A stretch of 64,000 bases of DNA, taken from Chiloscyllium plagiosum (Eukaryota). A program made the translations under genes and the position numbers. The stretch lies in contig NC_057718.1 of NCBI RefSeq assembly GCF_004010195.1, positions 90,687,353 through 90,751,352 on the forward strand, read 5' to 3'. Under the pieces are notes generated by a model, which did not search any database, was not told the DNA's origin, and saw nothing but the letters and a program-made list of their open reading frames with translations. Positions 2,611-44,934 of this stretch are shown piece after piece (the stretch's first letter is position 1; the number at the start of each line of letters is the position of its first letter).

Positions 2611-3059
2611 CCTGAGAACAAATTTTAACAATTGTCTGTTCTCGTGCAGTCAGGATGTATGGTTGGTATTTGTTTAAAATTAACGGAAATGTGCTAGTGG
2701 TCAGCCTTGCCAGTTGGCACAATATTAAATAGCTCTTAGATGTATGAGGAAGTTGATGAATGTGCGATATAAGCATCCATTATCATCTTCATCTTGGGTT
2801 GGAGAACCATTAGGTTTCCCGAAGATGCAAACAGCTCCATGGTAGTGACCTCTGTATTCCTACACATATTAATGATGGTGTTGGATTCTGAGCAGTAGCT
2901 GGCAATTGAAATGATTAACAGATAGTAAACAGTCAACCTTGCCAAAAAGAAGCTAATTGCGGGCAAAATTGTGCCTTGCAGCTTCTTGGCTGATGGGATC
3001 TAGATGGAAGGCTATTTAACTTAAAAATCTTATCGTTAACATCCCATCTTATGAAGAGA

Positions 3060-3235
3060 GTTAAAAGTCACACAACACCAGGTTATAGTCCAACAGGTTT
3101 AATTGGCAGCACCAGCTTTTGGAGCACTGCTCCTTCATCAGGTAGTAGGCTAGTGCTTCCAAATAAACCTGTTGGACTAAACCTGGTGTTGTGTGATTTT
3201 TAACTTTGACCACCCCAGTCCAACACTGGCTCCCC
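3060..3235. mobile_element. Short fold-back Penelope-like (PLE) derived insertion with hammerhead-like core
   Basis: Arm aaaagtcacacaacaccaggttatagtccaacaggttt pairs with aaacctgttggactaaacctggtgttgtgtgattttt; 17-bp TSD cccatctt(a/g)tgaagaga at 3043-3059 and 3236-3252; minus strand reads ctgatga-a-ggagc-agt-gctcc-aaaa. Confidence 0.75.
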
Positions 3236-3911
3236 CCCATCTTGTGAAGAGATATTTTAACCCACTGCAACACCCAATGTGTATTGTCTTTTCAATTTAA
3301 CGAATTCTGTCCTAACAAGACTGCTTGAAAATTGAACACTTGAAGAATCAAGAATTGGAATTTGCTGTTGCTGCATGACTTCAATGAGGAGTTCCGAATG
3401 GTGAAAGCTGGAGATACAAATGGACGTGACTCTGCCCCAGTCAGAGAGCGTGTGCCTCTGAAGAACTCTACTCAGATTTACTGTTGATTATTGCAAGTAC
3501 AATTTCTGCAGGAGTCTTCTTCCTTAATCAACTCTTGTCCTGCTGGAGCGCTCACTTAATCAAACATCAATATTCAATAAAAGCCTGACAATGTCTTACC
3601 CTCTAATCCTTGCATGCTTTTTTGAGAGTCAATTAAAAGGAACCTTTGTAAGACCTTCTGTGGCAATTTTGAGTTGAAATAAAGAATGAGAGGTGGGTTC
3701 TGTCCTTGATTGTACTTTGTTTAGTTGGACTGTGACCTGGTTTGTGCAAAGCCTTCGGAAATGAACTAACGTTCATCCCCAGCTTTGCATTATTGACATA
3801 AAATGTTAGAAAGATGTGATGTGACTGTCCTGGAATGTGAAAGATAGGAAATTAAACTCAGTGCCCAGTAAAATGTTGATTTGCAGCAGTGTTTATCCTC
3901 CCTTTTATTTC

Positions 3912-4135
3912 ACAGAATCCCTACAGTGTGGAAGCAGGCCATTCAGCCTACACAGACCATCCAGACCCACCCCATATTTCCCTTGGCCAATCCACTCTAT
4001 CTGCACACCTTTGGACTGTGGGAGGAAACCCATGCAGACACAGGGAGAACGTGCAAACTCCACCAGAGAGTGGAATTGAACCTGGGTCCCTAGCATTATG
4101 AGGCAGCAGTGCTAACCATTGAGCCACTGTGCAGC
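3912..4135 (-). mobile_element. HE1-type SINE
   Basis: Reverse complement of HE1 head, body and tail (agaatccctacagtgtgg ... gcagtgctaaccattgagccac). Confidence 0.88.
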
Positions 4136-4189
4136 CCATTTAATTCACTGGTGCTGGTGGTCTTGTTAAGTCACATGACATAATTTCAC

Positions 4190-4465
4190 AGCAGACAGTT
4201 AGAAGCTCAGTGCTTAAGGTAGGTCTTAAGGAGCACCTTAACGGAAAAGAGTATAAAGGCCGACAGCTGGGGAGGGTATTGCAGAGTCTGGCCAGGTGTT
4301 GGCGCAGGTGCCAATGACGGAGTCATTCAAAGTGGGTATGCACAAGAGATCGGAATTGGAAAAGCACAGATCTCTCAGGATGTTGTCCGTCTGGAGGAAG
4401 GTTTGGAACAAAGAAGTCTGAGGAGCATTGTGAAAACGAGGAGGACAATTTTAAATTACAGGCAG
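4190..4465 (-). mobile_element. Degraded L2-like LINE 3' fragment
   Basis: Resembles the L2 3' region also seen at 23330-23740 (gggagggtattgcagagt, ttttaaatt motifs). Confidence 0.45.
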
Positions 4466-4724
4466 TGATGTATTTATTGATGCCACCATATCAGAATGAG
4501 CGTTGTGATGCTCTGGAAGCTGGCAGGGCGGAGCTCCCACCAAACCAACCTTGAGACAGCTGGGTTTCTGTGGCCCTGCATAAACCTAGACAAGGAAGGT
4601 TCAGTCAGTAAGTTGGTGAGAAGAGTGTTGGAGAAACACATAAGAGAGCTAGGATTGTCCATGCTTCCCAGAGGAATTCCAATGTGCCTCTTCGCATGAA
4701 CATCTGCCTCTCCACCCCAACCCC

Positions 4725-5080
4725 ACCCCACATGTAAGTCCTGACCCAATGTGGAAGACTCTTAACTGCCCTCTGAAATGGCCTGACAAGCCATTTGAGG
4801 GAGACTAGACATGGGCAAGAACTGGGCAAGACGTTCCCTCTATACCAGGCAACATCTTTGTAAATCTCCTCTGAACCCTTTCTAAAGCTTCCACATCCTC
4901 CCTGTATTGCAGTGACCAGAACTGCATGCAATACTCCAAGTGCGGCCGCACCAGAGTTTTGAAATAATGTAGGTTAGATGGGCTTCAGCTTGGTTTCACA
5001 GGTCGGCATAACATCGAGGGCCAAAGGGCCTGTAATGTTCTATGTTTTACGCAATGCCCACGTTCCATGAAAGAAAGAGC
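4725..5080 (+). mobile_element. SINE family B 3' part, interrupted by a 5'-inverted CR1 fragment (about 4835-5048)
   Basis: gactcttaactgccctctgaaatggcct before the insertion and gcccacgttccatgaaagaa after it; the insertion is a minus-strand ORF2 piece plus a plus-strand tail ending tgtaatgttctatgtt. Confidence 0.65.
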
Positions 5081-5181
5081 TGTCTAGAATTTGGCTGCCG
5101 GAGAATGAGAAATTCAATACAGCCACTTCCTCTGGCCTTTTCAGAATCTCAATTGACTAATTGCTACTCAAGAGCAAGTAG

Positions 5182-5332
5182 ACAAACAGGAGGCTGGAAG
5201 AACACAGCAAGCCAGGCAGCCTCAGGAAGTTGTATCCAAAACGTTGACTACTCCAGCTCCTGAGCTGCCTGTTGTTCTTCCAGCCTCCTGTCTGTCCAGT
5301 TTGGATTCCAGCATCAGCATTTTTTTTTGTCT
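5182..5332. mobile_element. Short fold-back PLE-derived insertion
   Basis: caggaggctggaagaaca pairs with tgttcttccagcctcctg; 18-bp TSD ctact(c/t)aag(a/g)gcaagtag at 5164-5181 and 5333-5350; residual aaaacgttgac. Confidence 0.7.
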
Positions 5333-5529
5333 CTACTTAAGGGCAAGTAGCCATCTCCCAACCTGACACCTTACCAACCCCTCTCCTCCCCAATTAACGA
5401 TTCGTTTTATGAAATGGCACGGAGAGAGAGGAATAATCCAGCACTAATCTCAGAGGTCAGTTTTGTAGCCCTCCCGATTCCCATTCAACCTCCTCCACAG
5501 AGATAGTTGCTCTAGTCCTACTTCCTGAT

Positions 5530-5705
5530 TAGAGAGAGACAGCTCATGGTGGCTTAACCTGAGGGTCACCACATCTCAGGTGAAGCGAGAGGTTGAGCTG
5601 GAGAGTCCTTCATGGTAACCTCAACCAATGTGGGATTTGAACCCACTCTGTTGGTATCAAGCTGCGTCACAAACCAGCCATGCAGCCAACTGAGCTAACT
5701 AACCC
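5530..5705 (-). mobile_element. tRNA-headed SINE, family C
   Basis: Minus strand has agttagctcagttgg (A-box) and gggttcaaatccc (B-box), followed by a non-tRNA body. Confidence 0.6.
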
Positions 5706-5824
5706 CAGTGCAAATCATAAGCTGAAAAAGAAATCCTGCCCTGTGTACCTGCCTGAACGCTAAATGTGAGAAACTTTCCAGATCGCATTGAAAGCTTCCC
5801 AAATTATCAGAGAGCGAAGAAAAA

Positions 5825-6240
5825 GAGAACCTGCATTTGTGTAGAACCTTTCACAACCACAGAAAGTCTCAGTCACTCCACAGCCAGTGAAATACCTTGT
5901 GATGTGTAACTATTATTGTAATGTAAGGGAATGGTGTGTCCAGTATTTCTACACAAGAAGATCCTTACAATAAATGGCCACACATTGCTTGGTGGGTGAA
6001 TATTGCCCGGGGATCTTGAAGGACTGTCATGATCTTGAGAAGAACTAGATCTTTCAATCCCACCCAAGAGATGGTTAATCATCTCAAGTGAAAGGCAACA
6101 TCTCCATCTCCCCCCCCCCACCGCCACTGCTGCAGCATTAAGTCGACAGCTTAGACTTTGTTCTCAAATTTCCAGATCGAGGCTTGAACTCACAACTTAA
6201 GAGAACGAGGTGCTGCCCGCTGAGCCAGTGATGACACCAC
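5825..6240 (-). mobile_element. Old Deu-domain SINE (SacSINE1/AmnSINE-like)
   Basis: L2-type tail ctgcatttgtgtagaacctttcac and Deu-like motifs gaatattgcccgggga and catctcaagtgaaaggcaac; related copies near 41900 and 60085. Confidence 0.6.
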
Positions 6241-7169
6241 GGAAGCGTGACCAAGTCTGATCCAATTTGTCCATCTTTGCTTCAAATAAACATTCCAATT
6301 CTCAATGGTGTTGGCTGCCTCATTTGCAAAAGCAACCACCCCTCCCTCCCGCCACTCCGTGGCCATCACTCATCATTAGAGACTGGACAGTTGCAGGTTC
6401 CAAATGTTTGGGATGTGTAGAGTCAGTTGGAATCAAATGGAGTCACCATTGATGAGAAACGATTGCATTGTTCCAAATCACCTCAATGGCTCTGCAGTGA
6501 CCCCTGCTGGAGAATGTTTGCATGTGGATGCCCAGGGAGAGCACTTGGCTGGACCAAACGCACTTGCCTGAAGTTAAGGAAGGTCAAGGTTTACTAAAGC
6601 AAGTGACTGTCTGCATCACTTCAGGAAATGATGGGAGGAAGTTAGGACTCAAACGGGAACTACCATCTGCGCTGACATTATTCTTGGATGTGTGAGATGA
6701 TATAGTCCCTATTAGGAACCTAACTCTTTCTTGCATTTTAACTATCGAGGACACTGAACTGTACCATCCCGGGATTACAAGTTGACCTCAGCCAGAGCAG
6801 TGCTGCTGAGTCAGACTGATTTCCCATCATCCCTCACCATACCATGACTCTCAGAGGGCGAGTGCCATCTGTGGAGGTAAACTGATAAGATATTATGTGG
6901 CCTTTTTATTCTTTCTATGTCAATGTTTGAATGACCACTACATGAAATCACAGAGGAGATAGCACAGAAGCAGGCCATTCAGCCCAGCAGCTCCAGACTG
7001 GTGTTTATGCTCCATACGGACCTCCTGCCACACCTTCATCTCTTCCTACCGGCAAATCCTTTTCCCCTTGTGTTTATCCAGCTTCCCGTTTAATTGCTCC
7101 AGACTACTCACCTCACTAAGTTGTGGTAGTGACTCCCACATTCTAACCACTGTCCAAGTTAAGACATAA

Positions 7170-7440
7170 TCCCACCATGACAGATGGTAAAATTTGAAAT
7201 TAATAAAACACCTGAGTTGGAAATCTAATGGCTACCAAGAAACAAGATTGTTGGAAAAATCTGGTGGTTCACTAATGTCCTTTAGGGATGGAAACAGCCA
7301 TCCTTACCTGGTTTGGGTCTATATGCGACACCAGACCCACACCAACGTGGTTGACTCCTAACAGTCCTCTGGGTACTTAGCAATGGGCAATAAATGCTGG
7401 CCCGGCCAACACCGTCCTTATCCCGTGAGCAATTAAATAA
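7170..7440 (+). mobile_element. SINE family B
   Basis: ggttcactaatgtcctttagggatggaa, ccttacctgg, gtggttgactc, gggcaataaatgctgg. Confidence 0.8.
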
Positions 7441-7719
7441 TTATTCCAACAATTTGCAACTTAAAGCCCCTGCAACACCCAATAGGGGAGCCTGTTTGAA
7501 GTCATCACTGAGTTGGAATGGTCCTGTTGAGCTTGGGTGGTATCTCATGTGTGAATCATGACCTTTTCTCCCAGTGACAGAATTTCGGAATTGGGGACGA
7601 GATATCTGCACACTATTTGTAAAGCTCCACCAACTCTTCCTGACTTTGTGAAGGTCTAGCCCCCAGACACAAAGGTTTATATTCTGTGGAGAGATTGAAC
7701 GACAATGGGGTTGTCCCAC

Positions 7720-8100
7720 TTTGGAATTTAGAGCTTAATGAGGTGAATTGAGGAATGTTCCCAAAGTGTTAAGATGGACAACCATGGGGTTTGATTGGGA
7801 GAGACCGTGTCTCATTTTGGATAGTTGTGTGTTTTTTTTAAAAAAACAGATCTTTGAGGAGTGAAATTAGAAAATACTTCTTCAGCCAACGGATAGAAGT
7901 TTAAAATTCTCTTGCACAAATGGTAATTGGTGCTGGATCAGTTGTTAATTTTAAAACTGAAGTTTGTAGAGTTTTGTAATTCATAGCATATTAGGGAACA
8001 TGGGGCAAAGGCTCAGTGTCAGGTTACAGATGGTGGTTTACTGACTTGTCAGGAAAAACTGAAAGCAGTGGATGGTCTCCTCTTGTTCAAGTGTTCCTAC
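7720..8100 (+). mobile_element. Highly degraded CR1 3' fragment
   Basis: Remnants atgaggtgaattg, gaggagtgaaattagaaaatacttcttcagccaa and a CR1-like tail. Confidence 0.5.
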
Positions 8101-8216
8101 ATCCCAGCTAGATTTGAGCACTGCAATCTTGACTTGTAAAGAGGGTTGAGTAGTCACCTCTTCCTCTGGCTCCAACCGTGACACAATGTAATGTCTCCTA
8201 AAAAGTGCTGGACGAT

Positions 8217-12120: not shown

Positions 12121-13454
12121 TGGCTTTAGGAGCAGGGGGTTGGAGAATGTTTGGTAGCAAAAAGAACCCGTAAAGTTACAAGTGGTGACCTTTTTATTTT
12201 AGTTTAGTGTCCTGAACAGGTTTAAACTGTAATAATATGCGCATCTTCGAACATTCTTCACGCTCATCTCTGTGAGTTTTACCAAGTGGGAAAGTGCCCA
12301 AGGTGAGAGAATTTTGCAATCATACTAAGCGGGATCCAGAAATTATCCCAAGTAATTTTCCAACATCAAGCAACGTGATTTGTACTGAATAAATTCCAAC
12401 CCTGCTTTCAAATCAGTCTTCTGATGGGACACTGAAGACATCCCTCCTGTGTTATTCTTTAATATCATTTTGAGCTAAACCAGTTGCAATTAACATTTCA
12501 GGAAGAGGTGAACAGTGTTTAACTTCAGAATGGGCATCTGTCGCAATGCGAGTCTTTTCTGATTAAAATTGCCATTCCCATGTGACAGGGGCTGATAACT
12601 TGAAGCCTGCAAGACATTATTTTGACCTCATTAGCATGTCAGCACTTATTTCCAGGGGCCCGTGGTAATAGGAGGCAATTGTTTGCAAAGTCTCGAGACT
12701 GAGGTGTTCTTACAGATCACCCGCAAAATAACAATTGTGCAGCAGACTTCTCTCATTGCTTGATCGTTCTCTGAACTGCACAGCTGTCAAAATATCAGAC
12801 ATTTGGGTGACACTGCATGTCGAGGCTGCATTGCTGGACAGTTTGTTCTGGTCTGATTTCACTCAGTAGAAGGTGGGTTCAAATATCTCCATGGTGGTTT
12901 GGAGCAAACGGAAATAGTAAAAGTGACTGCGAATTGTCATTTAAAGGCACCCCCACCACAAAAAATCAGGGAAAATATAAAGTGAAGGATCAAAATAAAA
13001 TGAAAGGGCTAAAATAAGCTGTGTTCAAAGTCGTTGATGTTGACTCCCTTTTCCTTAGTCTGTTACTCTTGAGTTATTTTTCTTTCGGTGTGTGTGTATG
13101 TTTGGAGATGGAGGAATTTCCAGTCACAAACCATACGGTTCTGGATTTTGCAATGGTTTTTCACAAGTGCGTTTTCATCAATTAAAAATTAATGAATGGC
13201 TTTGTTGTGGGGGAGGGCAAGGGTCATCTGAAACAATGCAATGGCAGGGATTTTGTGGAACCCACGCACACGTTTGGGCAGACCTTTGACTTGTAATTGT
13301 ACTTTTTTTTCTTCTTCATTCATGGAGTGAGGGCATCCCTGACGAGGCAGCATTTATTGCCCATTCCTAATTGCCCAGACGGCAGTTAAGAGTCAACCAC
13401 ATCACTGTGGGTCTGGAGTCACATGTAGGCCAGACCAGGTAAGGATGGCAGATT

Positions 13455-13579
13455 CATCAGGAAGGCTTTTGCCCGAAACGTTGACTCTCCTGCTCCTCGG
13501 ATGCTGCCTGACCTCCTGTGCTTTTCCAGCACCACACTGTCGACTCTGATTTCCAGCATCTGTGATCCTCACTTTCTCC
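13455..13579 (+). mobile_element. Short PLE-derived insertion with a split hammerhead-like core
   Basis: 14-bp TSD aag(g/a)atggcagatt at 13441-13454 and 13580-13593; inverted tcatcagg fused to ggcttttgcccgaaacgttgac. Confidence 0.75.
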
Positions 13580-13773
13580 AAGAATGGCAGATTTCCTTCC
13601 CTACAAGGAATTAGAGAATCAGCTGGGTTTTTCCAACAATCAACAATGGATCTGTGGTCATCGTTAGACTCTTAATTCCAGTATTTTAAAAAATTGAGTT
13701 CAAATTCCACCATCTGCCATGGCAGGATTCAGACCCAGGTCCCCAGAACATTCCCTGGGTCTCTGGATGAACA

Positions 13774-14189: not shown

Positions 14190-14300
14190 CTCTCGCTGTC
14201 TCTCGCACTCTCTCGCTTGTTCTCTCACTAACTCTCTCACTCACTCTTTCTCTCTCTCTCTCTCTCTCTGCTCTCTCTTGCTGTCTCCTTCACTACTTCT

Positions 14301-14345
<45 letters not shown>

Positions 14346-14375
14346 GTTGTCTCCTTCACTACTTCTTTCTCTCCT
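14190..14375. repeat. (CT)n microsatellite containing a ~66-bp tandem duplication
   Basis: tgctctctcttg(c/t)tgtctccttcactacttctttctctcct at 14269 and 14335. Confidence 0.9.
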
Positions 14376-14395
14376 GAGGTAGACCAAGAAACCTG

Positions 14396-14562
14396 AAACA
14401 AACACAGGCAATGCTGGAGAAACTGAAGAAGAGGCATACTGGACTCAAAACGTTAACTCTGTTTCTCCCTCCACCGATGCCACCAGACCTGCTGAGTTTC
14501 TCCAGTATTCTGCATTTGTTTCAGATTTCCAGCATCTGCAGTATTTGACTTTTAATTAAGGA
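14396..14562. mobile_element. Short fold-back PLE-derived insertion with hammerhead-like core
   Basis: 10-bp TSD aagaaacctg at 14386-14395 and 14563-14572; aatgctggagaaact pairs with agtttctccagtatt; ctgaaga-a-gaggc-atactg-gactc-aaaa-cgtt at 14423-14454. Confidence 0.7.
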
Positions 14563-14639
14563 AAGAAACCTGTTCCCTAATTTGCCTCCACAGTGGGTAC
14601 TTTTAAGCAAGTAAGATAAGGGTGGGATCTAGGTTGGAC

Positions 14640-16430: not shown

Positions 16431-16682
16431 CCTGCCAGAGGCAACAGCCACCAAAACCACCACAACATTCTTCCATCCATTCTTCATAAATGACTCAGCG
16501 ACTGACCTACATATTTGTCTTAATCTTTATCTTATTTTTGCATTTGTGTGTACTGTGTTATTATTTCTTCCAAATTTGGTACTAATAAACTCTTTTGTTA
16601 GCTCAACTCAAGAAAGTTTGGTTAAATTGGTTTTTATGTCCAGGAGAATGATATCCACAAGGGAAGGAAGTCTTTATAAATG

Positions 16683-16835
16683 TTAAAAATCCCACAACAC
16701 TGGGTTATAGTCCAACAGGTATTTTTGGATTTACTAGTTTTCGGAGTGCTGCTTCTTCATCAGGTGATTGTGGGGCAGATTCATGAGACACAGACTTTAT
16801 AGCAACAGGATTGCAACATTTACAAATGTTGTAAC
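16683..16835 (-). mobile_element. PLE 3' terminal fragment with hammerhead-like core
   Basis: Same family as 3060 and 29309; minus strand reads ctgatga-a-gaagc-agc-actcc-gaaa at 16763-16739. Confidence 0.7.
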
Positions 16836-22880: not shown

Positions 22881-23059
22881 AAAGATATATAGATTAAAGC
22901 CATTTTATTCTTCTGTTAGGTAGCACAGCAGCAGATTTATTTTAGTTTTGCAGTAAGGAATAAGAATTTTATCTTGTGCTTCTAACCACCCTCTGTGATG
23001 TTGGATTTTCAGGTGGATCCCTGTTGGAATATTTGAGTCAATGTAATATGGCCACACTA

Positions 23060-23275
23060 GGCGAAAGTGAGGACTGCAGATGCTGGAGATTAGAGTTGAG
23101 AGTGTGGCGCTGGAAAAGCACAGCAGGTCGGGCAGCATCCGAGGAACAGGAAAATCGATGTTCCAGGCGAAAGGCCTTCATAAGAAATGAGGCTGGGAGC
23201 CTTGGGGGTGGAGATGTAAATGGGAGGGGGTGGAGCTGGTAGCTGAGAGGGCGATAGGTGGATGGAGGTGGGGGT
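23060..23275 (-). mobile_element. PLE 3' UTR/terminal fragment
   Basis: Closely similar to 26300-26520; hammerhead core degenerate. Confidence 0.75.
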
Positions 23276-23329
23276 AATATAGCCGTACACCCCTCAGGGC
23301 TATATTCAGTTCAGGAAAACATTCTGCGC

Positions 23330-26275: not shown

Positions 26276-26294
26276 AAAGATGATTCAAAGGCTA

Positions 26295-27240
26295 AAGTCA
26301 AGACTGCAGATGCTGGTGATTAGAGTCGAAAGTGTTGTGCTGGAAAAGCACAGCAGGTCAGGCAGCATCCGAGGAACAGGAGAGTCGACGTTTCAGCCAA
26401 AGGCCCTTCATCAAGAATGAGGCTTGTGAGCCAAGAGAGTGGAGAGATAAAGGGAGGAGGGTGGGGCTGGAGGGAAGGGAGCTGAGAGTGCAATAAGTGG
26501 ATGGAGGTGGGGGTAATGGTGATAGGTCGGAAAGGAGGTTGGAGTGGATAGGTAGGAAGGAAGATGGACAGGTAGGACAGTTCATGAGGGCAGTGCCGAG
26601 TTGGAAGTTTGGAACTGGGATAAGGTGGGAGGAGGGGAAATGAGGAAACTGGTGAAGTCGACATTGATGCCATGGGGTTGGAGGGTCCCAAGGGGGAGGA
26701 TGAGGCATTTTTCCTCCAGGCATTGGGTGGTTAGGGAGTGGCGATGTAGGAGGCCCAGAACCTGCAAGTCCTTGGTGGAGTGGGAGGGGCAGTTGAAGTG
26801 TTTGGCCATGGGGCTGTGGGGTTGGTTGATGTGGGTGTCCCAATGATGTTCTCTGAAGCGCTCTGCGAGTAGGTGTCCTGTCTCCCCAGTGTAGAGGAGA
26901 CCACATCGGGAGCAATGGATACAGTAAATGACATGTGTGGAAGTGCAGGTAAAGCTCTGATGGATGTGGAAGGCTCCTTTGGGGCCTTGGATGGAGGTGA
27001 GGGGGGGAGTGCGGGCGCAGGTTTTGCAATTACTGCGGTGGCAGGGGAAGGTGCCAGGACGGCAGGGTGGGTTGGTGGGGAGCCTGGACCTGACAAGGGA
27101 GTCGCGGAGGGATTGGTCTTCACAGAAAGCAGATAGAGTTGAGGAGGGAAATATATCACTGCTGGTGGGGTCTGTTTGTAGGTAGCGGAAATAGCGGAGG
27201 ATGATACAATGTATGCGGAGGTTGGTGGGGTGGAAGTTGA
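26295..27240 (-). mobile_element. Penelope-like retroelement, 5'-truncated: GIY-YIG endonuclease C-terminus plus 3' UTR
   Basis: Hand translation of the minus frame ending at 26582: GTFPCHRSNCKTC..FTCTSTHVIYCIHCSRCGLLYTGETGHLLAERFREH..MAKHFN..LEEKCLI..GTLQPHGINVDF; hammerhead-like motif at 26383-26420. Confidence 0.9.
26383..26420 (-). ncRNA. Minimal type I hammerhead ribozyme-like motif (C3>U variant)
   Basis: attc-TTGATGA-agggc-cttt-ggct-GAAA-cGTC-gact, with palindromic ACGT stem III and a GUC cleavage triplet. Confidence 0.55.
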
Positions 27241-27749
27241 GGTCCGAAGCTCAGTGGTGTCCCAAGCATATGTAGGGAGTTCCTGAACCGGGGGGAATAG
27301 GACAGTATCGAGGTATGTGGAAATGAGTTCAGTTCAAGATATGTGGAGATGAGAGGGGCATTTATTTTTATTTGCCATGAAATAATAAAACCCATACCAG
27401 GTTAAACTGGCTTGTTCAGTTTTACTTCTGATGGAACAGCATCTGCCCCTCATATGGACTCTGGTTCACAATGAACAAGACTTCTTTAAAGTCAATCTGT
27501 ACCTATTGTCATTACTATCCCCCTTTATATCTCTTTAACTGCCTACTTTGCCCCTTCACTCCTTTCCCATTTCCTTTCCACATAAACAGCAACATCACCA
27601 CCTTCCGGGAGATAGGAACAGTCTCAGTTCCTGACAGAGTCATTTCCAGGTGGTGTCTGCACTCCCAGTGTGGATGGGAATGGCATGAAACAGGTCTGTG
27701 AGAGATAGCAGCTGTGGCTTGGGAAAGCAGAGTGGGGGGGGTCTGCATT

Positions 27750-29254: not shown

Positions 29255-29985
29255 TCCATCACTTCTGAAGTACTGCGAGCAGTTTTGGTCCCCTTACTTT
29301 AGCAAAGACGGTAGCCATGATGTGGGGGGAGCCGGTGTTGGACGGGCATGGACAAAGTTAAACATCACACAACACCAGGTTATAGTCCAACAGGTGTATT
29401 TGGAGGCACTAGCTTTCGGAGCGCCGTTCCTTCTTCAGGTAGCTATAACCTGGTGTTGTTTGATTTTTAACTGTAGCAAAGATATTATTTCATTGGAGGC
29501 AGTTTGGAAGAGGTTCACTAGGATGTCCCCCTGCCCGTGTATGGAGGGATTGTCCTATGAACTAAAAGCCGACCAACGTTGGGAATCTACTCAGTGTAGT
29601 TTCCGAGGAATGAATGGTGATTTCATTGTAACATACAGGTTTCTTAAGGGGCTTGACAAGGTAAATGCTGAGAAGGTTCTTCCCCTCCATGGGAGAGTCT
29701 GGGAACAGAGGGCACAGTCTCAGAATAAAGTGGCACCAATTTAAGATTGTGATAAGGAGGATTTTTTTCTCTCAGTGGTTGAGTGTTTGGAATTCCTTAC
29801 CACAGAGAGATTTGGTGGCAGAGTCCTTGGGTATATTTAAGATTCTTGATGAAGAAGGGGAGTCCAGGATTATGGGGAAAGGGCACGAAAACACACAAGA
29901 AGAATGTCATCTTGTTGAATGGTGGAGTAGACTCAAGGGGCTGAATAGCCTCCTCCTGTTCCTGTTTCTTGTGGTCTTGTATTCT
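29255..29985 (+). mobile_element. CR1 LINE 3' fragment interrupted by a PLE-derived insertion
   Basis: YCEQFWSPYFSKD before and IISLEAVWKRFTRM after the insertion; VWNSLPQR. Confidence 0.85.
29309..29473. mobile_element. Short fold-back PLE-derived insertion with intact hammerhead core nucleotides
   Basis: TSD tagcaaaga at 29300-29308 and 29474-29482; acaacaccaggttatag pairs with ctataacctggtgttgt; minus strand reads ctgaaga-a-ggaac-ggc-gctcc-gaaa at 29438-29414. Confidence 0.75.
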
Positions 29986-30895: not shown

Positions 30896-31380
30896 GGGCA
30901 GCACGGTGGCTCAATGGTTAGCACTGCTGCCTCACAGTGCCAGGGACCCAGGTTCAATTCCCACCTCAGACAACTGTCTGTCTGGAGTTTGCACATTCTC
31001 CCCGTGTCTGCGTGGGTTTCGTCTGGGTGGGCAGCACGGTGGCTCAGTGGTTAGCACTGCTGCCTCACAGTGCCAGGGACCCAGGTTCAATTCCCACCTC
31101 AGGCAACTGTCTGTCTGGAGTTTGCACATTCTCCCCGTGTCTGCGTGGGTTTAGTCTGGGTGCTCTGGTTTCCTCCCACAGTCCAAAGATATGCAGGTTA
31201 GGGTGAATCGACCATGCTAAATTGCCCATAGTGTTCAGGGATGTGTAGGTAAGGTGTATTAGTCAGGGGTAAAGGAAGAGTAATAGGTTAGGGAATGGGT
31301 CTAAGTGGGATACTCTTTGGAGGGTTGGCGTGGACTTGTTGGGCTGAAGGGCATGTTTCCATACTGTAGGGATTCCACTC
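30896..31380 (+). mobile_element. HE1-type SINE with a 133-bp tandem duplication of its 5' head
   Basis: 30896-31028 vs 31029-31161, 3 mismatches by hand. Confidence 0.92.
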
Positions 31381-31874: not shown

Positions 31875-31917
31875 GTAAGTCATAGCTTCCTTTTGTCACC
31901 ATCATTCTAATGTTAAA

Positions 31918-32031
31918 GTTTTGGATGGAATCGTCGACTTCTCCACCTCCTGGTGCTGTCTGGCTTGCTGTGTTCTTCCAGCCTCCTGCCTGTCTACCTT
32001 GGATTCCAGCATCTGCAGTCTCTTTGTCTCT
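31918..32031 (+). mobile_element. Short PLE-derived insertion 44 bp downstream of the SLC24A3 exon end
   Basis: 14-bp TSD attcta(a/g)tgttaaa at 31904-31917 and 32032-32045; same family as the right arm at 5235-5332. Confidence 0.75.
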
Positions 32032-33699
32032 ATTCTAGTGTTAAAAGCTGGTGTTGCCCAATGCAAGTATATAGGAGGTGTAAAACAGGTTAGATCCCTT
32101 TGATTGCAAAGGATTATGTTCGCAACTCAGTGACACTTCAACAGGGGGCTAAAAACAAAAGGTTTTGTTGCTGGTGTTTGATCTGGATGGAATCAAAGTT
32201 GACCAAAATGAATGAACCTGCTTTCCATGACTTTCTGAACCAATGATTTTGGATGAGTAACTAAGTTCTTACACTGAAAGTTTCCTCCAAATCTGAAGCT
32301 TTTCCTTGCCAGCAGTTATTCACTTGCAACCTTTGCAAATGTTCAGTTGACAATTTACTGCAATTCAGAGATTTTGGCTCTGAATGTCTGATCCCGCACT
32401 TGGGTGTACAGAGTCGAAAATTCCTGCCTCTGCCATCTAGACTCCAGTGAGCATTCCCCAGACATATGGAGTTCAGTTCCAGGCCAGAGTTGGAATTGGT
32501 CGCCTCGGTGTAGACATCGGAGGCAACCACATGGGGGCAGTAGAGCCGAGACTTGGTCACAGTTGACAGGAAATCTATGAAATAAAAAGGAACAGCCATC
32601 ATCCCTCCTACCCCACACAATCCCCATACCACTTCCTCCTACCACCTCACCACCCTTTAAGGCCCTTTATAGCCTCTTACTTCCAAGTCATACCAACTCA
32701 TGAACCCTCACCCATCACTATTTACCCTTATACCTACTGTGCCAACTCACACATGAACAAACTTTAGAACCTTTGCTGAGATGAAATAATGCAATGTTCT
32801 AAGTGTCCGTTGAGAATTAAATTTTTTGTCTAAAAACATTCATTGATTTAAGAACTCCTTCACTACATTTCACATCCTTCGACTGCTTGATCCATATAAA
32901 AACAAGCATTTGTATTCACCGATCCACTTCAGAGACTTTATAAGTCTTAGAGCTGTCAGTCAAACTGTAAACTGACAGGCAGCCCACTGCGCTAACATTA
33001 GGTTGTGGAATCAGTCATGCTGTATGGATCTTTTTAATGGTAGCCCTCGAATTTATGTGAACAGACTTAACTGGCAAGAAGAGACTTTTTTTAAAACACT
33101 GTAAACCATTTTCTCAAAAGTTTAAAGGCCAGGAGTTTTACATGATTGACACTTTGATTATTCCCATTCAGTGACACTTCCCTTGATGACTTGACATTTT
33201 CTGTGACAGCTTGACAGCTCCAACGAGTTTAAGACTTCGTTTCTCACACATTTGTGTCTACTTTTAACAATCCCAAATGACACCTGAGCTCTCCAAAAGG
33301 GCACTTGACCGCCTTTAAAGGTGTTGCCAGATCTATCCAAAAGGATGTCACACCATGCCAAAAGGGTATTCTACCTTCACAAATAAATCTGTCCGTTGTA
33401 GATCTTCTCTTGGGCAGAGGCAGCATCCTGGGTCCTGTCAGCAACAGTGGAGGCTGCTTCAAAGTGTTTCCTCCTCGGTGCTGGCATCTCAAAACAGTTT
33501 GGTGGCTGCAGAGTCACTTAGGAAATCGAGGAGATGCGGATGGAGCAAGAATGACATTTGTCCTAACTTTATATGATTTATTTCTTTTTATAATTTACAC
33601 AATTAAAATGGCTTCAGCATATGGTAACTTATATATATGTATATATTACTGTATTTACATAGATATGTGGAACAATAAATTATTATTTCTATATCTGGG

Positions 33700-35280: not shown

Positions 35281-36004
35281 CAAATGACAGCAAAGCTAAT
35301 TGTCTTTTTTGGTGATAGATTTTCTGTCTTCTGAGGTCAGTTATTCATTTGGGTGCCACAAATATTAGTTGACCTTTTGATAACTCATCCAATTGGTAAC
35401 TCTAAAGTGAAACTTGAGTCAGTGATGAGACAGTACTCCCAATGGCAAGAACACGTACCTGTGCAGTGCCTTTTAATGAAGATAAACTAGCCACAAGAGG
35501 GAACCATCCACAACATGTCCAGAGGAATGGGGAGAGGTACAGATCGCACATCTGCAGACTCTGGAAAAGAGTCGTGCTTTCGGAAAAGTCTTCAAGGTGG
35601 AAGGAGATTTGGAGGAGCAGATGGGAACTCCAGAGATGATTCTCCATCAATGATGAGCTGATGGTTTGGGGATGGCGGTGGAGAGATGGTGAAGAGAAGG
35701 CCCAAGTTACTACAAGATGGAAGTAGCGAAAGAAGCATTGACGAGAATCTGAATGCAAAGAGGAAGATTTAAAATTTATTACGTTGGGTGTCCAACCACC
35801 AGTTGCAATCTGTGAGGGGTTAAGCAACTGGACTGAGGTGTGGGGCAGCTGTATTTAGCAGATATTTTCCTAATCAGTCTGCTCAGAGGTATGCTGACAG
35901 CAAATGATCTGACCCAGTCAGGATACTGAACGTACTCACAGTTAGCACTGATGTGGTTCGACTTCCCACTCTTTCTAAAATGCAAGGAAGTGATTTCAGG
36001 GGCA

Positions 36005-36412
36005 TCTGAACTGGAGGAAGAACGCCTCATCTTCCACCTCAGGAGGTTACAACCCAGTGGCTTTAACGTAGAATTCACCAGCTTCCAAATCCCCCCCACC
36101 CTGCAACCTCATCCCAGGTCCATACCTCCCTCTCCACCCCGCCCTCTTGACCCGATCTAACCTGTCCATCTTCCTTCCCACCCATCTGCTCCACCCTACC
36201 CACTGACCTAAAATCACCTCCAACCTGCATCCACCGATTGCCATTCTACGTACCTTTCCCCAGCACCCCGATTTTTTTCTCAGCCCCCTTCCTCCTCACC
36301 TGTCCCGATGAAAGCTCCCTGACTCTGATACTGCTCGACGTGTTGTGCTTTGTCCAGCTCCGCACTTTACTGCCTCTTAACTTGCCAGCATCTGCAGTCC
36401 CCAGTATCTCCA
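36005..36412 (+). mobile_element. PLE 3' fragment
   Basis: LEEERLIFHLRRLQPSGFNVEF, C-rich UTR, ccagcatctgcagtc terminus. Confidence 0.8.
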
Positions 36413-37534
36413 AGCATCTGAGTGTTGCCCTGTTAGCCTTGTCATTAATCCCAGGCTGGATTCTTGGCAAATGGGGCCTATGAACTAGGCCAAACTGTGC
36501 ATAGAATAGGAATGATCAATCTGCCACACATTTTAGCATTTAATTTCTCTCTCTCTCTCTCGCAACAATCCCCTGGACTTGATGCTGATTGTGGCTGCTT
36601 TTCATCAATTTACACTTCACAATTTACCTTTCCACCCGACAGAGGAGCCTTTGTGCCTCACTGTACTTATGACGCAAAATAATTAAACTGTGATGCTTGG
36701 TGCCTTCCATTTGAAACTGTTTCATCACAATCAGGCATGACATTAAAAAATTAAGGCTTATTGTCTATAGCTGCAGGAAGCCCATCTGTATGTATTCCAG
36801 CGAATGTGATGATTGCTGATTTTTGGCTCATGTTTAAGTGGAAGATAATTACGTATTGTTGAAGCACTCTTGTGCAGTCAGCGTTTGGATATTCCCAGCT
36901 CGGATTTAACCTAGTCCATGTGTAAAGCAAAGCGTCTCCAGCTGTGCACACCGCTTCCAAGTCCTGAAGAGCACCCTTCACAATAGGGGTTTCTAAACAT
37001 CTGTGGCTAGATATCTTAACCCTCCTCTCCCCCAGACGTGGCCTGGAGTGGACAAAATTTTGCCCGTTGATTTTCCCAGTCCCATATCCCCATATCACCG
37101 CCACCCCACCTCCACAACCCCCAGGCCCGATTCTCCTAGGTAGCTTGAGTTCATGTGGGCTAGGATTGGCAGCACCAACCTGTCTGTAGCTAGCCACCCA
37201 GCTAAGGTGAAGTCCCACTATCGAAGCCTGACAGGAACTCCATGATCCTGAAGCAGGCAAGGGACGGTTTGGCCAAGTGGAAGTGGCCTCACGGTGTGGA
37301 GGGGTGGGGACAGACTGAGGGGCCCAGCACCCCCAGGAAGTACAGGAGACCAGTTTTGCTCACCCGAGTGAGGCAGCAGCTGTAGCCAACCTGCAGAGGG
37401 GCATAATTCCCCCTCGATTAGGTGCTAAAGGCTACTTCTTAAATTAAAAGTTTTGAAAAATGCTGGTGGTGGAGATGTTCGCCTCCATTTTGAAACATTC
37501 TCTCCGTTCCTTACTCTTGGAAACAGCTGTCTTT

Positions 37535-39920: not shown

Positions 39921-40589
39921 AATACGGTCTTTGTCAGAACAAATCTCATTGTGCGTTATTCAAAATGAAACAATTGGCACCTATTGGCAGCCATTCCCTT
40001 TGACCAGGCCCGACAGTGAAGGGACAATGTTGGAACGTCAGGAGAATGAGAATTGATTCCTGTCCTCTGCTCACTAGCAATATTTATGAGAATTGGAGGT
40101 CAGTTGTAAAGCACTCTGAAAGAAGTCAAAGTGGCAAACATTCGAAGAAAAAGTTCACACAGAACTTCAATTTGGAACAAACAAATTAGAATTGGCAGTC
40201 AACTCGCTGTTTGCTGACTTTGGCCACTGAGGTCCAATGCTGGTTTGTAACTGATGCCAAAAATTCCAAACAACCCTTTGGTGGCAAGGGATTGACTCTT
40301 AACAGCATGTTTGTTTTCTGCTTTCACCAGTCTGTTCTCTGGTCGTGAAGAAAGGGAAGAGAGAGAGGCAGTGTGCCAGCCTCCTTGTCCATTAAATCCA
40401 CAATCTGTCCGCCAGAGCACTTTCTCTGTAGTACCAGCCCCGATGAGACTGATTATTCTGCAGAAAGGAACAGCCAGCAGCCTCTGATAGATCCAGACTG
40501 GGTCCATGTGCAATGAGGTCTTCCTCCAGCTATTCAGAGATGTTGCTGGTTTATCAAGGACTGCAGATGTCAAGGCCATTCTGATATTT

Positions 40590-40942
40590 CATAGAATCCT
40601 AGAATCCCGATAGTGCGGAAACAGGTCCTTCAGTCCATCAAGTCCACACCTACTCTCTGAAGAGTAGCCCGCCCAGACCCATTCTCCTATCCTATCGTCC
40701 TATATTTACCCCTGACTAATGCACCTAACCTACACATCGCTGAACACTATGGGCAATTTGGCCTGGCCAATCTACCCTAACCTGCACATCTTTGGATTAT
40801 GGGAAGAAACCAGAGCACGTGGAGGAAACCCACGCAGATACGGGGAGAATGTGCAAACTCCACTCAGGCAGTTGCCCGAGGCGCGAATTGAACCCAAATC
40901 CCTGGCACTGTGAGGCAGCAGTGCTAACCACTGAGCCATACG
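40590..40942 (-). mobile_element. HE1-type SINE
   Basis: Full reverse complement. Confidence 0.9.
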
Positions 40943-41899
40943 TTTGAGAAGGTGGGGGTCCATCTGATGTTGGGCTGAACTCTGAGTGGCATGCAGAAGG
41001 CAGTGAGCCACACTGGAGCATTCCACAGTGGGCGCTGTGTGGGTCAGGACGTCGTTGCGTGCCTTTGAGATATCCAGGAGCAGTTTGCAGCCCTGCCTGT
41101 TAGGAGATGGCACGCGTCGTCGGTAGGTCATGGGGAAAGAGTCGGATGGGCTGGTGGATGGACCAGTAGCTTGCTCCTACACGCTGTCCAATCATTGCAT
41201 GTTGGTTGGCCTGTGTCCTCGGATCTGCAAGTTGTGAAGCTCAAATCGCTCCCCTCAAAAACACTGTTCGTGGACAGGCCTTAGCTGGACACAAGATGCT
41301 GTGCTCTCCATTTAGTTGCCAGTCCTTAGCACAGGTCTGAGCTTTGAAAGGGCAACTCGAAGACAATCTGTGGACAATGTCACCGTCCCAGGGACCAGCA
41401 AGGTTGGATTTAGTCGTGTTAATGTCTTCAGACACAGGACAAAGAAACCTGCCTACCAATTTTTTGTGTTCAAACTAGGCAACAGCATGGAGGAGAACAG
41501 GTGCATTCTCCATGGCAACACCTTGACCCCATCAGGACCAATCAGCACCCTTTCCTTCAGTTGTATGAATTGTTGATATCCCTTTGGAGTTTTGCTATTC
41601 TTGTGTGTGTCCTGATGAAACAAGAATCTCCAACAATACTTAAGTCATACTATAAATTCTGCTAGAGTAAGGGGGTGGGGTAGGTGGGGAAAGAGGAAGG
41701 ATAGTGAATTCAGCATTGTAAAGGCTGGCTTTCGACCAGATATTGATTAATAACAAAATGTCATTGTTACCATCCTCACACAGTGCCCACACAGAGCAAG
41801 CCAGTGTAAAAGAGGAATCTCAGCGTCGGAACTGCGAGAGGCTGAGCATGTTGCTAAGAAGCGAATTGTGATGTTTTACAATGGACCAAGAGAAAGTAA

Positions 41900-42275
41900 A
41901 ACATTCCCTTGTAAAGGATTATCGTGGCTTCAGTCATCCCAAAGGGTTTCACAGCGACTGAAGTACATTTGAAGGGACACTGCTGTTTTGTAGGCAGAAG
42001 CAGCGGCTGACTGAGGGGAAATCTTGTACTAACAATGAGGTGGTTGATCAGATGATTAGTGTCAGTGACATTGGCTGAAGGATAAGTAATGCATTAGGTA
42101 TAAATCTCTGTTCTTCTTTAAAGGAGAAAGCTCTTTTTGCATCTGCAAGGCTTCGGATTTAACAAAGGGGAGGGCACCACTCACTCAAATGTCAGCCCAG
42201 GTCATGCCGTTGAGTCTCTGGAGCGGGAGTCGAGCTCACAGCTGTCTGTCTCGGAGGCAAGAGCGTGACTGACAG
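41900..42275 (-). mobile_element. Old Deu-domain SINE
   Basis: Similar to 5825-6240 and 60085-60470. Confidence 0.5.
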
Positions 42276-43124
42276 GGAATACCAAATTGGCTGGGGGTGG
42301 TCACACCCTCACCACTAGCAAATCGGAGTGAAGCAGCCAGTTGCCATGCTGATGGCAAAGATCAGATGGCCTGGCTGGTTGTGGGAGCTCCCTCTAGCAC
42401 GTCTCATGAATTATTGTGTTCGGCTGTACGTGTCCTCCAGGACTTTGCTGCTTGGAACGAGGTGAAAATTTGAGATTCCCGAGCAGGAGCTGGCATCAGA
42501 AGCAAAGCCTTTGGAGGGACAGGAACATCGACACAAAGAGAAGCTCACAGTGGGGTCAAGGACAGCTGCTGCGAGGGCAAACTAATCAGAGAAATTCTCA
42601 CCACCGATTTTAAAACTGTAACATAACAGGACAAAACTTGGACAAGCCAACGTAGTCTAAGTCCATTGCTCTCGCTGTCACGAAAAGTACTTGATTCCTC
42701 AGCAGAAACAGAATTTGAATTGAACTCCCCTCCCCCTCCCTGAAAGGAAGCGTTGTAACCATCAGCCTCAGATTTCGGGGTCAGAGAAGCCCGGATTTGT
42801 GTTGGCGTTTGGAGGTGTGTGGAAGAGGCAAAGGTCTGGCAGAGTTACAGGGTAATGGGAGGATGGGCACATGGTGCCAGGGTACTGGGAGTCCTTGAAT
42901 GGGTTGGTAATACTGGGAATATGGAACAGCAGCTTGGAACATTAGGAGAGGCATTTGGGATGTGGGAATACCGAGAGGAAATCAAGAGTCAAGAATGCGA
43001 GAAAGAAGGGGGATTGGGAATGTTTCTGGGGTTCTAGAGATGGGGAGCAAAAAGTGGGCCCAAGATTGTTTGAGCACTGCACAGGGCTGAATTTGAAACA
43101 CCAAAAGAGGTGCAAATGGTAAAT

Positions 43125-43670
43125 AGAGTCATAGAGATGTACAGCACAGAAACAGACCCTTCAGTCCAACTCGTCCATGCCGACCAGATATCCTAACCTA
43201 ATCTAGTCCCATTTGCAAACACTTGGCCCATATCCCTCTAAATCCTTCCTATTCATATACCCATCCAGATGCCTTTTAAATGCTGTAATTGTACCAGCCT
43301 CCACCGCTTCCTCTGGCAGCTCATTCCACACACGTACCACCCTGTGCGTGAAAACGTTGCTCCTTAGGTCCTTTTTAAATCTTTCCCCTCTCACCTTAAA
43401 CCTATGCCCTCTAGTTTTGGATGCCCCCCCCCAACCCCAGGGAAAAGACCTTGGCTATTTACTCTATCAATGTCTCTTATAAACCTCTATAAACTTCAAC
43501 CTCTCCCTATAGCTCAACCCCTCCAACCCTGGCAACATCCTTGTGAATCTTTTCTGCACCCTTTCAAGTTTAACAACATCTGTCCTATAATAGGGAGACC
43601 AGAACTGAATGCAGTATTCCAAAAGTGGCTGTACAGCCACAACATGACCTCCCAACTCCTATATTCAATG
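43125..43670 (-). mobile_element. HER1/CR1 3' fragment with internal deletions
   Basis: LLEYCIQFWSPYYRTDVVKLERVQKRFTRMLPG; VWNELPEEAVEAG. Confidence 0.92.
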
Positions 43671-44290
43671 GGAGCAGGATGTCAAAAATCTGTGAAGGAG
43701 TACCTTGGAGTAGCACACTCAATGAAAAGTAGACAACACAAATTGGGAAGCTAACAGGAAAGGCATGATGGGAAGTTGGTGTGTGACACTCACAAACAGT
43801 GAGCTGTACACAGCAAGCCAGGTATAGTGATGCACATATATGATCCACAAAGCATAGCTGTCAAACTTCATCTGTAATTAGAGTTGGCATCCCTAATGGA
43901 ATGGCTGGGTGTCTACAGGAATCAGCATCAACCTCCTGATGGCTATTGAAAGAATCTGGGAAATTTTCAACTGAAGGAAATAAATTATTGCACATTTATC
44001 ATCCATCGGGTAATTACACAACGCTGATCTAATTGTGTACTTGGCAGGATGATGTAAAATGTAAAGCAGTACAGAGCTCATGATTATTGTTCCCTTCCAT
44101 TTAAACTACAGATGAACGCAAGGTATAAAAGGGCTGTACTAGTATTAGCATGCAGTACATTGAAAGTCATACAGATCGATTGAGGCTAGCTTATATTTTT
44201 ATAAATTGAAACTATTCGGAGAATTGGTGAGAATTTATCCAGGAGGCTTTAGTTGGCATGAAGTGGTGGATAGAGGTCCTTTGAGTATTA

Positions 44291-44780
44291 AAGACTGAAA
44301 GAACTGCAGATGCTGTAAATCAGAAACAAAAACAGAAGTTGTTGGAAAATCTCGGCAGGTCTGGCAGCATCTCTGGAGAGAAATCAGAGTGAACATTTCA
44401 GATCCAATAGACAATAGGCAATAGGTGCAGGAGTAGGCCATTCGGCCCTTTGAGCCAGCAACACCATTCATTATGATCATGGCTGATCATCCTCAATCAG
44501 TGTCCTGTTCCTGCCTTATACCCATAACCCTTGATTCCACGATCTTTCAGAGCTCTATCCATCTCTTTCTTGACCTCCACTGCCTTCTGGGGCAGAGCAT
44601 TCCATATATCCACCACTCTCTGGGTGAAGAAGTTTCTCCTCAACTCTGTTCTAAATGGCCTTCCCTAGAATGGAGGTTCAGTTCTGAGGAAGGGTCACCG
44701 ACCCGAAACACCAATTCTGCTTTCTCACCACAGATGTTGCCAGACCTACTGAGCTTTTCCAGCAACTTCTGTTTTTGTTC
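44291..44780. mobile_element. Fold-back PLE-derived insertion with hammerhead motif and a nested CR1 tail (about 44406-44665, minus)
   Basis: Perfect 13-bp TSD cctttgagtatta at 44278-44290 and 44781-44793; aacaaaaacagaagttg pairs with caacttctgtttttgtt. Confidence 0.82.
44680..44716 (+). ncRNA. Hammerhead ribozyme-like core with a perfect stem II
   Basis: agtt-CTGAGGA-a-GGGTC-acc-GACCC-GAAA-cacc-aatt; stem III/cleavage site differs from the cgtt/cgtc seen in sister copies. Confidence 0.55.
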
Positions 44781-44934
44781 CCTTTGAGTATTATCCCATT
44801 TCAAGCTCCCTGAGAACCCAACTACCCCACATCACCAACTTTTTGTGGCATCATTACTGCCAATATCTCCAGCCCAATTTGATAACCCTTTTACTTCATT
44901 TATTAAGGCTATGAAAGGTTTGCTAGCAGGTCCT

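What the first reader, a model, noticed from the sequence alone, without database searches (positions are those of the whole stretch)
3043..44793. Recurrent mini-insertions of Penelope termini with hammerhead-like cores, fold-back arms and 9-18 bp TSDs
Seen: seven short insertions (3060-3235, 5182-5332, 13455-13579, 14396-14562, 29309-29473, 31918-32031, 44291-44780) from several sequence families. Each is bounded by a 9-18 bp direct repeat and lacks any ORF. Five have inverted arms. All contain all or part of CUGANGA-A-stemII-GAAA. The 13455 insertion matches the 3' UTR of the GIY-YIG element at 26295-27240. Established: Penelope-like elements carry minimal type I hammerheads in their terminal repeats and often insert with an inverted terminal segment. 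Inference: these form an abundant class of non-autonomous, ribozyme-bearing hairpin elements mobilised by PLE RT/endonuclease (SINE- or retrozyme-like) that resembles MITEs but is retro-derived. About one per 9 kb here.
Basis: partly seen in the sequence, partly recalled or inferred. Interest (0 to 1): 0.8.

Follow-up and report, generated by a model that had tools for sequence, protein, structure and literature searches.

The report
Penelope retrotransposon stubs in a shark
The seven short inserts are real, mostly mirror-image end-pieces of a known kind of jumping gene (Penelope-like retrotransposons) in shark DNA, likely dead one-off insertions rather than a new self-spreading ribozyme element, though where they stop and where their RNA is polyadenylated may show how these elements copy themselves.

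Summary
All 7 inserts and their 9-18 bp target-site duplications are real. Five have inverted arms, each flush at one end with a 31-47 nt one-sided tail at the other: the published Penelope-like element (PLE) insertion layout. Only 1 of 7 keeps an intact hammerhead core. Five further PLE ends in the window extend the series to 80-1000 bp, up to a Neptune-type GIY-YIG fragment whose best hits are shark proteins. No two window copies share a junction or lie in tandem, so a SINE- or retrozyme-like family is not supported. Truncation is not random either: 6 of 10 arms that reach the hammerhead stop 0-12 nt in front of it. Poly(A) reads end about 15 nt after an AATAAA/ATTAAA inside one family's terminal repeat, short of the insertion ends. 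Likely mechanism: both cut DNA strands prime copying near the 5' end of the autonomous element's RNA and run off its start. The scan noted these stubs before (163 notes, at least 19 genomes); my one look-up for the poly(A) point returned none. Real, largely known; interest 0.3.

The parts
3043..3252 (.). Family B fold-back insertion 3060-3235: tail-less arm on minus strand 3060-3146 with decayed hammerhead core (C3 at 3141), 2-nt filler, plus-strand arm 3149-3235 with 31-nt tail; 17-bp TSD 3043-3059 / 3236-3252
5164..5350 (.). Fold-back insertion 5182-5332: inverted tail-less arm 5182-~5227, sense arm ~5228-5332 starting inside hammerhead stem II, 37-nt tail; 18-bp TSD
13441..13593 (+). Family A (Neptune-type) stub 13455-13579: 9-nt inverted piece (reverse complement of TTCCTGATG, the 5' half of the core) joined by 2-nt microhomology to a sense arm that starts at stem II; 14-bp TSD proven by four empty paralogues
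14386..14572 (.). Fold-back insertion 14396-14562: inverted arm 14396-14424, sense arm from hammerhead C3 (14423; one core mismatch), 41-nt tail; 10-bp TSD
16673..16830 (-).
23043..23284 (-).
26291..27290 (-). 5'-truncated PLE, about 1 kb: GIY-YIG endonuclease fragment with Neptune-type linker cysteines (frame 26582-27250), 3' UTR, decayed hammerhead (C3 position 26414) and terminal repeat; no TSD found
29300..29482 (.). Family B fold-back insertion 29309-29473: minus-strand arm 29309-29442 with tail and the only intact core (29438-29410, predicted cut 29410/29409), poly(A) hexamer position 29400-29395, short plus-strand arm 29443-29472; 9-bp TSD; sits in a dispersed host repeat
31904..32045 (+). 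Single-arm stub 31918-32031 starting inside stem II; 14-bp TSD
36002..36421 (+).
44278..44793 (.). Fold-back insertion 44291-44780: minus-strand arm with 34-nt tail, split near its core by about 260 bp (~44405-44660) of another dispersed repeat; plus-strand tail-less arm with core 44684-44712 (one mismatch); 13-bp TSD
46846..46925 (-).

Best explanation
These TSD-flanked pieces are the terminal repeats of several Penelope-like retrotransposon families, and each is likely a dead-on-arrival insertion built once at its site from the autonomous element's RNA, not a copy of a mobile hairpin. Shown: PLE identity for family A, TSDs, one flush end plus one 31-47 nt tail, different junctions, a size series, a pile-up of stops just 5' of the hammerhead, and poly(A) reads ending inside the family B repeat. 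Inferred: the GIY-YIG endonuclease makes a staggered cut 8-18 bp apart. One or both 3' ends prime reverse transcription internally, at two sites 31-47 nt apart, about 85-140 nt from the RNA's 5' end. Each cDNA runs toward the 5' end and stops early or runs off the RNA start a few bases before the hammerhead core. Two such cDNAs joined head to head give the lopsided hairpin; one gives a single stub. Longer copies would need a jump to the RNA's 3' repeat or a read-through tandem transcript.
For: Protein: best hits are shark proteins at 68% and 60% identity that carry RT and GIY-YIG matches; linker CxxxxCxxC present. Layout: 5 of 5 fold-backs have one end flush (0-1 nt) and a 31, 37, 41, 47 or 34 nt overhang, matching the published inverted pLTR + 30-40 bp tail + TSD (PMC3846280, PMC8557442). 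Biochemistry: an Anolis PLE cuts and extends both strands and starts at two internal RNA sites that bracket the tail (PMC11167929). At 3060 each arm holds sequence the other lacks, so neither is a snap-back copy of the other. Stops: 6 of 10 arms reaching core C3 end within 12 nt upstream; 0.069 stops per nt against 0.003-0.005 elsewhere; P about 3e-5, 6e-4 after allowing 20 windows. Raw-read depth on family A is about 1000 in the repeat and about 80-125 in the body. Poly(T) loose ends at 29380 (567 reads), 29383 (144) and a second variant (156), 13-15 nt after AATAAA/ATTAAA and about 23 nt short of the nearer insertion end at 29357: those polyadenylated 3' ends cannot template the insertion ends.
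Against: 4 of the 16 listed contig pieces span a junction like 29442/29443 at about 84% identity, so similar junctions recur. The family A step is confounded by a dip where the reference diverges (26430-26470), and RNA reads are no genome census. The poly(A) reads may come from a few host transcripts or A-rich copies. The RNA start is inferred only; the cap-G test was ambiguous at 29442/29443 and absent at 3060. Family B and the 14396/44291/46846 group were not tied to an ORF here.
Confidence: 0.72

Rival explanations
1. Plain random 5' truncation of copies primed at the RNA 3' end, as for LINEs, with occasional inversion; the hammerhead edge has no special role, or its stem merely stalls the polymerase.
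For: Sizes grade 80-1000 bp. 8 of 18 arms stop at scattered points 3' of the core, three of them in or near stem II. PLEs are described as 5'-truncated on insertion (PMC8969392 passage).
Against: Stop rate is about 14 times higher in the 13 nt before the core than downstream, and those stops lie beyond the stem, not in it. Family B poly(A) sites lie short of the insertion ends. Internal initiation is shown in vitro (PMC11167929).
Confidence: 0.12
2. One reading: non-autonomous hairpin or solo-pLTR elements (SINE- or retrozyme-like) transcribed from their own internal promoter and re-mobilised in trans.
For: PLE promoters are internal to the pLTR (PMC2377424), so a stub that begins at the RNA start could be re-transcribed. 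pLTRs suffice in cis for trans mobilisation (PMC3846280). Monomeric retrozyme derivatives of pLTRs are reported in vertebrates including one chondrichthyan (bioRxiv 2026.07.22.740005). A few contigs share a 29309-like junction.
Against: No shared junction among 5 window hairpins; no tandem units among 12 loci; 1 of 7 intact cores; at most 1 of 18 arms could begin at the ribozyme cut; listed opposite-strand joints fall at three different places in 1-2 contigs each.
Confidence: 0.12
3. Hairpins arise by self-priming (snap-back) of one cDNA or of an antisense RNA, as proposed for rotifer PLE palindromes.
For: Proposed in PMC3846280 (passage). At 5182, 14396 and 29309 the short arm is wholly contained in the long arm.
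Against: At 3060 the tail-less arm has core sequence that the tailed arm lacks and the reverse. 13455 has a non-overlapping inversion. The flush end is always 31-47 nt from the tail end, which two priming sites explain directly.
Confidence: 0.04

Closest known systems
Insertion units of endonuclease-positive Penelope-like elements (Pen2a_Av, PMC3846280; Craig et al. 2021, PMC8557442; D. virilis Penelope, PMC2377424)
   Same: Head-to-head inverted terminal repeat, one-sided 30-40 bp tail, 8-18 bp TSD, heavy 5' truncation, hammerhead in the repeat, C-terminal GIY-YIG with Neptune-type linker.
   Different: Here most units are only the repeat (115-230 bp); the passages read do not describe a pile-up of stops before the core or a poly(A) site inside the repeat.
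Poseidon element of Anolis carolinensis (PAc; Frangieh et al. 2024, PMC11167929)
   Same: Two reverse-transcription start sites bracketing the tail, downstream of a hammerhead; both DNA strands cut and extended.
   Different: In vitro, in a lizard, Poseidon clade; junction formation and truncation points were not examined in the parts read.
Minimal hammerheads of metazoan PLEs (Cervera and de la Pena 2014, PMC4209133)
   Same: CUGANGA, bulged A, 5-bp stem II, GAAA, palindromic 15.2-16.2; mostly single dispersed motifs ascribed to truncated PLEs, some pairs 100-700 bp apart on opposite strands.
   Different: No shark was named in the parts read; most cores here are mutated or cut.
Non-LTR retrozymes (PMC7229834; bioRxiv 10.64898/2026.07.22.740005)
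   Same: ORF-less, PLE-related, type I hammerhead, long TSDs; dispersed monomers exist.
   Different: Defined by head-to-tail tandems with a complete ribozyme in each unit; here none is tandem and arms are head-to-head.
L1 twin priming and retroviral minus-strand strong-stop DNA (both recalled, no call)
   Same: Second target strand primes a second cDNA; copying from near the RNA 5' end to the cap followed by a jump to a 3' repeat.
   Different: L1 inversions do not overlap (only 13455 is like that); retroviruses prime with tRNA, off the chromosome. Analogy only.

Membership tests
EN+ Penelope-like element | C-terminal GIY-YIG endonuclease after RT | tested here: met
   26585-27250 frame: Pfam GIY-YIG E 0.003 (below the curated cut-off); 60-68% identical to shark proteins with RVT_1 and GIY-YIG matches. 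Applies to family A; the RT itself is not in the window.
EN+ Penelope-like element | Inverted terminal segment plus one-sided 30-40 bp tail | tested here: met
   5 of 5 fold-backs, tails 31-47 nt
EN+ Penelope-like element | Variable-length TSD | tested here: met
   10 of 12 loci, 8-18 bp
EN+ Penelope-like element | Minimal type I hammerhead in the terminal repeat | tested here: met
   1 intact and 2 one-mismatch cores at these loci; 0 intact cores in 4 shuffles; three one-mismatch hits elsewhere, against 0-1 per shuffle. Stem II differs between families yet pairs (GGAGC/GCUCC, GGGUC/GACCC).
Neptune clade | [quoted passage not shown] | tested here: met
   GTFPC-xxxx-C-xx-C invariant in 7 of 7 aligned proteins; no RT tree built, so Nematis is not formally excluded
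EN+ Penelope-like element (family B and the 14396/44291/46846 group) | Link to an RT-EN ORF | tested here: inconclusive
   No ORF-bearing copy in the window. The 14396 group is 67-71% like family A downstream of the core; family B shows no likeness to A.
Non-LTR retrozyme | At least two tandem units, each with a complete hammerhead | tested here: not met
   0 of 12 loci tandem
Non-LTR retrozyme | Self-cleavage and circular RNA | not testable with these tools
   Poly(A)-anchored reads cross the predicted cut without loss (depth 1265 against 1290), but short cleaved products would not be recovered
SINE-like non-autonomous family | Fixed unit with shared ends and interior in many copies | tested here: not met
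   All 5 window hairpin junctions differ; sizes 80-1000 bp. A genome-wide census was not possible.
MITE | Terminal inverted repeats at both ends and fixed short TSD | tested here: not met
   One end always overhangs by 31-47 nt; TSD 8-18 bp

The most novel reading that the evidence does not exclude
The Penelope terminal repeat is organised like a retroviral R-U5: RNA start just before the hammerhead, poly(A) site about 60 nt later, reverse-transcription starts beyond it. The abundant stubs and hairpins would then be integrated strong-stop cDNAs, primed by both strands of the cut target, whose jump to the RNA's 3' repeat failed. This would explain pseudo-LTRs, inverted ends and the tail in one scheme.
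Probability: 0.4. Interest if true: 0.6.

Novelty: new member of a known kind. Interest (0 to 1): 0.3.

Why it matters
As a new element class it does not hold, so annotation should treat these as PLE end-pieces rather than MITEs, miRNA hairpins or retrozymes. The PLE transposition cycle is still open (the papers read call its later steps unvalidated). At 12 loci in 64 kb (about 4.6% of the window) shark genomes offer a very large fossil record of priming sites, stop points and junctions with which twin priming and a strong-stop jump can be tested by counting alone.

Tried and rejected
Whole-genome census: no genome held. Rfam: no hammerhead family hit; the MIR860 match (43.5 bits, gathering 89) just reflects the 3060 hairpin. 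Exact-pattern scans for family B in metagenome and viral contigs: 0 and 0. Plasmid BLAST: none. First TSD scan of the five extra loci used too high a cut-off and found nothing; redone. Monomer folding of 10 arms: none better than shuffles. A conserved AUGCUG/CAGCAU helix downstream of the core pairs in most rows but shows no two-sided change (my bracket string was one pair off), so no structure claim. Contig depth is not copy number and was not used. Loose ends at 26393-26396 come from this copy's own mismatches in stem II and are not breakpoints. Run X22 laid 0 reads: no test. No RNA holder was listed on record by the run search. Cap-derived G: inconclusive. Target preference: TSDs are 65% A+T against 54% for the window, no motif. 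Literature: searches returned no paper on shark PLE hairpins, PLE twin priming or PLE strong-stop; subscription papers, Repbase and Dfam are not covered, and Lunse et al. (PMC5785218) was not held. The bioRxiv preprint's supplements could not be seen and may list these shark families.
Full report
Setting. The window is animal DNA rich in dispersed repeats. The open frame at 26582-27250 (minus) is 68% and 60% identical to proteins named from Chiloscyllium punctatum and Rhincodon typus (14 hits among 616 candidates). Those proteins match RVT_1 and GIY-YIG, and the window frame matches GIY-YIG weakly (E 0.003). The linker cysteines and GIY-YIG residues are invariant in 7 of 7 aligned proteins. 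PMC8557442 (passages) gives that linker motif as the mark of Neptune and Nematis. So this is shark DNA with a 5'-truncated Neptune-type Penelope-like element (PLE). No whole genome was held.

Observation. All 7 inserts are flanked by direct repeats of 9-18 bp that beat at least 99.6% of 1500 random controls. Four in-window paralogues of the host repeat around 13455 hold the 14-bp target once. Of 15 listed joints in DNA contigs laid on 29266-29515, 10 skip the 29309 insert (51 further rows not shown). 5 of 7 have inverted arms. The hammerhead claim is weaker: one core is intact, two have one mismatch, 3060 has two, and three lack the first half on the sense arm. Rfam found none. 44291 owes about 260 of its 490 bp to another dispersed repeat.

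More copies. BLAST with 13 seeds found five more PLE ends, at 16682, 23059, 26291, 36011 and 46846, three with 8-12 bp TSDs. Lengths run from 80 to about 1000 bp. Two unrelated groups exist: family B (3060, 16682, 29309; 79-91% alike) and a looser group (family A at 83-85% among 13455, 23059 and 26291; the others 63-82%).

Anatomy. In 5 of 5 fold-backs one end is flush and the other overhangs by 31, 37, 41, 47 or 34 nt. That is the published PLE signature: an inverted, 5'-truncated repeat, a 30-40 bp tail on one side and a TSD (PMC3846280 and PMC8557442, passages; PMC2377424 abstract and passages; PMC8969392 passages). Cervera and de la Pena already report mostly single dispersed minimal hammerheads ascribed to truncated PLEs, and pairs 100-700 bp apart on opposite strands (PMC4209133, parts 1-2 of 4). 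Frangieh et al. show a lizard PLE cutting and extending both strands and starting at two internal RNA sites that bracket the tail, with ribozyme cleavage not needed (PMC11167929, parts 1-2 of 4).

Do the hairpins move as units? The five window junctions all differ, including the two family B hairpins, which put the tail on opposite kinds of arm. Raw-read depth is about 1050 just before the 29442 edge and 8-10 beyond it. The three listed opposite-strand joints fall at three places, 1-2 contigs each. Against this, 4 of 16 listed contig pieces (the tool keeps the longest of about 61,700) span a similar junction at about 84% identity; recurrence at a hot spot or old relatives would both give that. 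No locus is tandem, whereas non-LTR retrozymes are defined by tandem units with complete ribozymes (bioRxiv 10.64898/2026.07.22.740005, parts 1-3 of 5; PMC7229834 passages).

Where copying stops. Of 18 arms, 8 stop at scattered points 3' of core C3. Of the 10 that reach it, 6 stop within 12 nt upstream and 4 run 55-880 nt on; the stop rate is 0.069 per nt at the edge against 0.005 and 0.003 (P 3e-5, or 6e-4 allowing 20 windows). Positions were read by eye and the zone was chosen after seeing the data and earlier notes of this scan, which suggested an RNA start there. On family A, raw-read depth is about 950-1040 in the family-specific bins of the repeat and about 80-125 in the body, the fall lying at 26408-26430, but a dip to 10-17 where this copy diverges blurs it. 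Initiator-like words (TCATTCC in the family A read majority, TCAGTTC at 44291) place an A at -4 (consensus recalled). A cap-derived G could not be shown.

A poly(A) site inside the repeat. In the one raw-read run that laid (X21, poly(A) single-cell library, 2002 reads), first mates start on the plus strand at 29380-29383 behind poly(T) (567 and 144 reads), and a second sequence variant does the same (156 reads). Most reads restore AATAAA at 29400-29395 (1171 of 1220), and the second variant has ATTAAA; the window's 3060 arms carry one of each. The site is 13-15 nt after the hexamer, about 30 nt after the predicted ribozyme cut and about 23 nt short of the nearer insertion end (29357). 586 reads continue past 29440 into upstream sequence like that in DNA contigs. 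So RNAs that carry sequence upstream of this repeat end inside it, and such 3' ends cannot template the insertion ends; a 5' copy or a read-through can. These reads may come from few loci or from host genes, and genomic A-tracts are not excluded. No poly(T) row was listed for family A. The reads cross the cut site without loss of depth, which is no test of cleavage.

Mechanism. Inferred: a staggered cut; both 3' ends can prime internally at the two start sites near the RNA's 5' end; cDNAs stop early or run off the RNA start; joining gives a stub or a lopsided hairpin. 3060 argues for two separate copying events because each arm has sequence the other lacks. 13455 looks like L1-type twin priming (recalled): a 9-nt inversion that does not overlap the main arm and ends at -3. 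Long copies would need a jump to the 3' repeat, as with retroviral strong-stop DNA (recalled analogy).

Verdict. Real, but a new example of a known insertion layout, and one this scan has noted often (163 notes in at least 19 genomes). My paper searches found no account of shark PLE hairpins, PLE twin priming or PLE strong-stop, within an open-access library only; PMC6155905 and PMC6765202 were seen as passages and added nothing on sharks. The stop peak and the poly(A) geometry are the parts worth following. Interest 0.3.

Noticed in passing
window 29380-29400 (family B repeat): Poly(A) site 13-15 nt after AATAAA/ATTAAA inside the repeat, seen in 567 + 144 + 156 raw reads; dispersed copies could act as portable poly(A) signals in host genes.
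   Followed up: partly
window 14455-14480, 44713-44735, 44380-44400(-), 46897-46920(-): Just after the hammerhead, the 14396/44291/46846 group has a pyrimidine tract, in three of four arms ending in AG before ATG, like a splice acceptor; PLE repeats are known to hold introns.
   Followed up: no
window ~44405-44660: About 260 bp of another dispersed repeat, LINE-3'-end-like by eye, with 11 other matches in the window, splits the left arm of 44291 next to its hammerhead core.
   Followed up: partly
window 26294/26375 (table 5c): A few contigs join the family A 3' end back to 26375, i.e. head-to-tail units of about 90 bp that lack the hammerhead.
   Followed up: no
window 54016-56586: 26-bp minisatellite, 99 copies, 87% matches.
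   Followed up: no
window 30896-31162: Tandem duplication of a 133-bp piece of a SINE-like repeat, 97% matches.
   Followed up: no
window 3068-3195(-): The 3060 hairpin scores 43.5 bits on Rfam MIR860: such stubs can be mis-called as microRNA precursors.
   Followed up: no
window 14190-14375: A CT-rich microsatellite ends about 10 bp before the 14396 TSD; microsatellite bias is reported for some PLEs, but only 1 of 12 loci shows it here.
   Followed up: no
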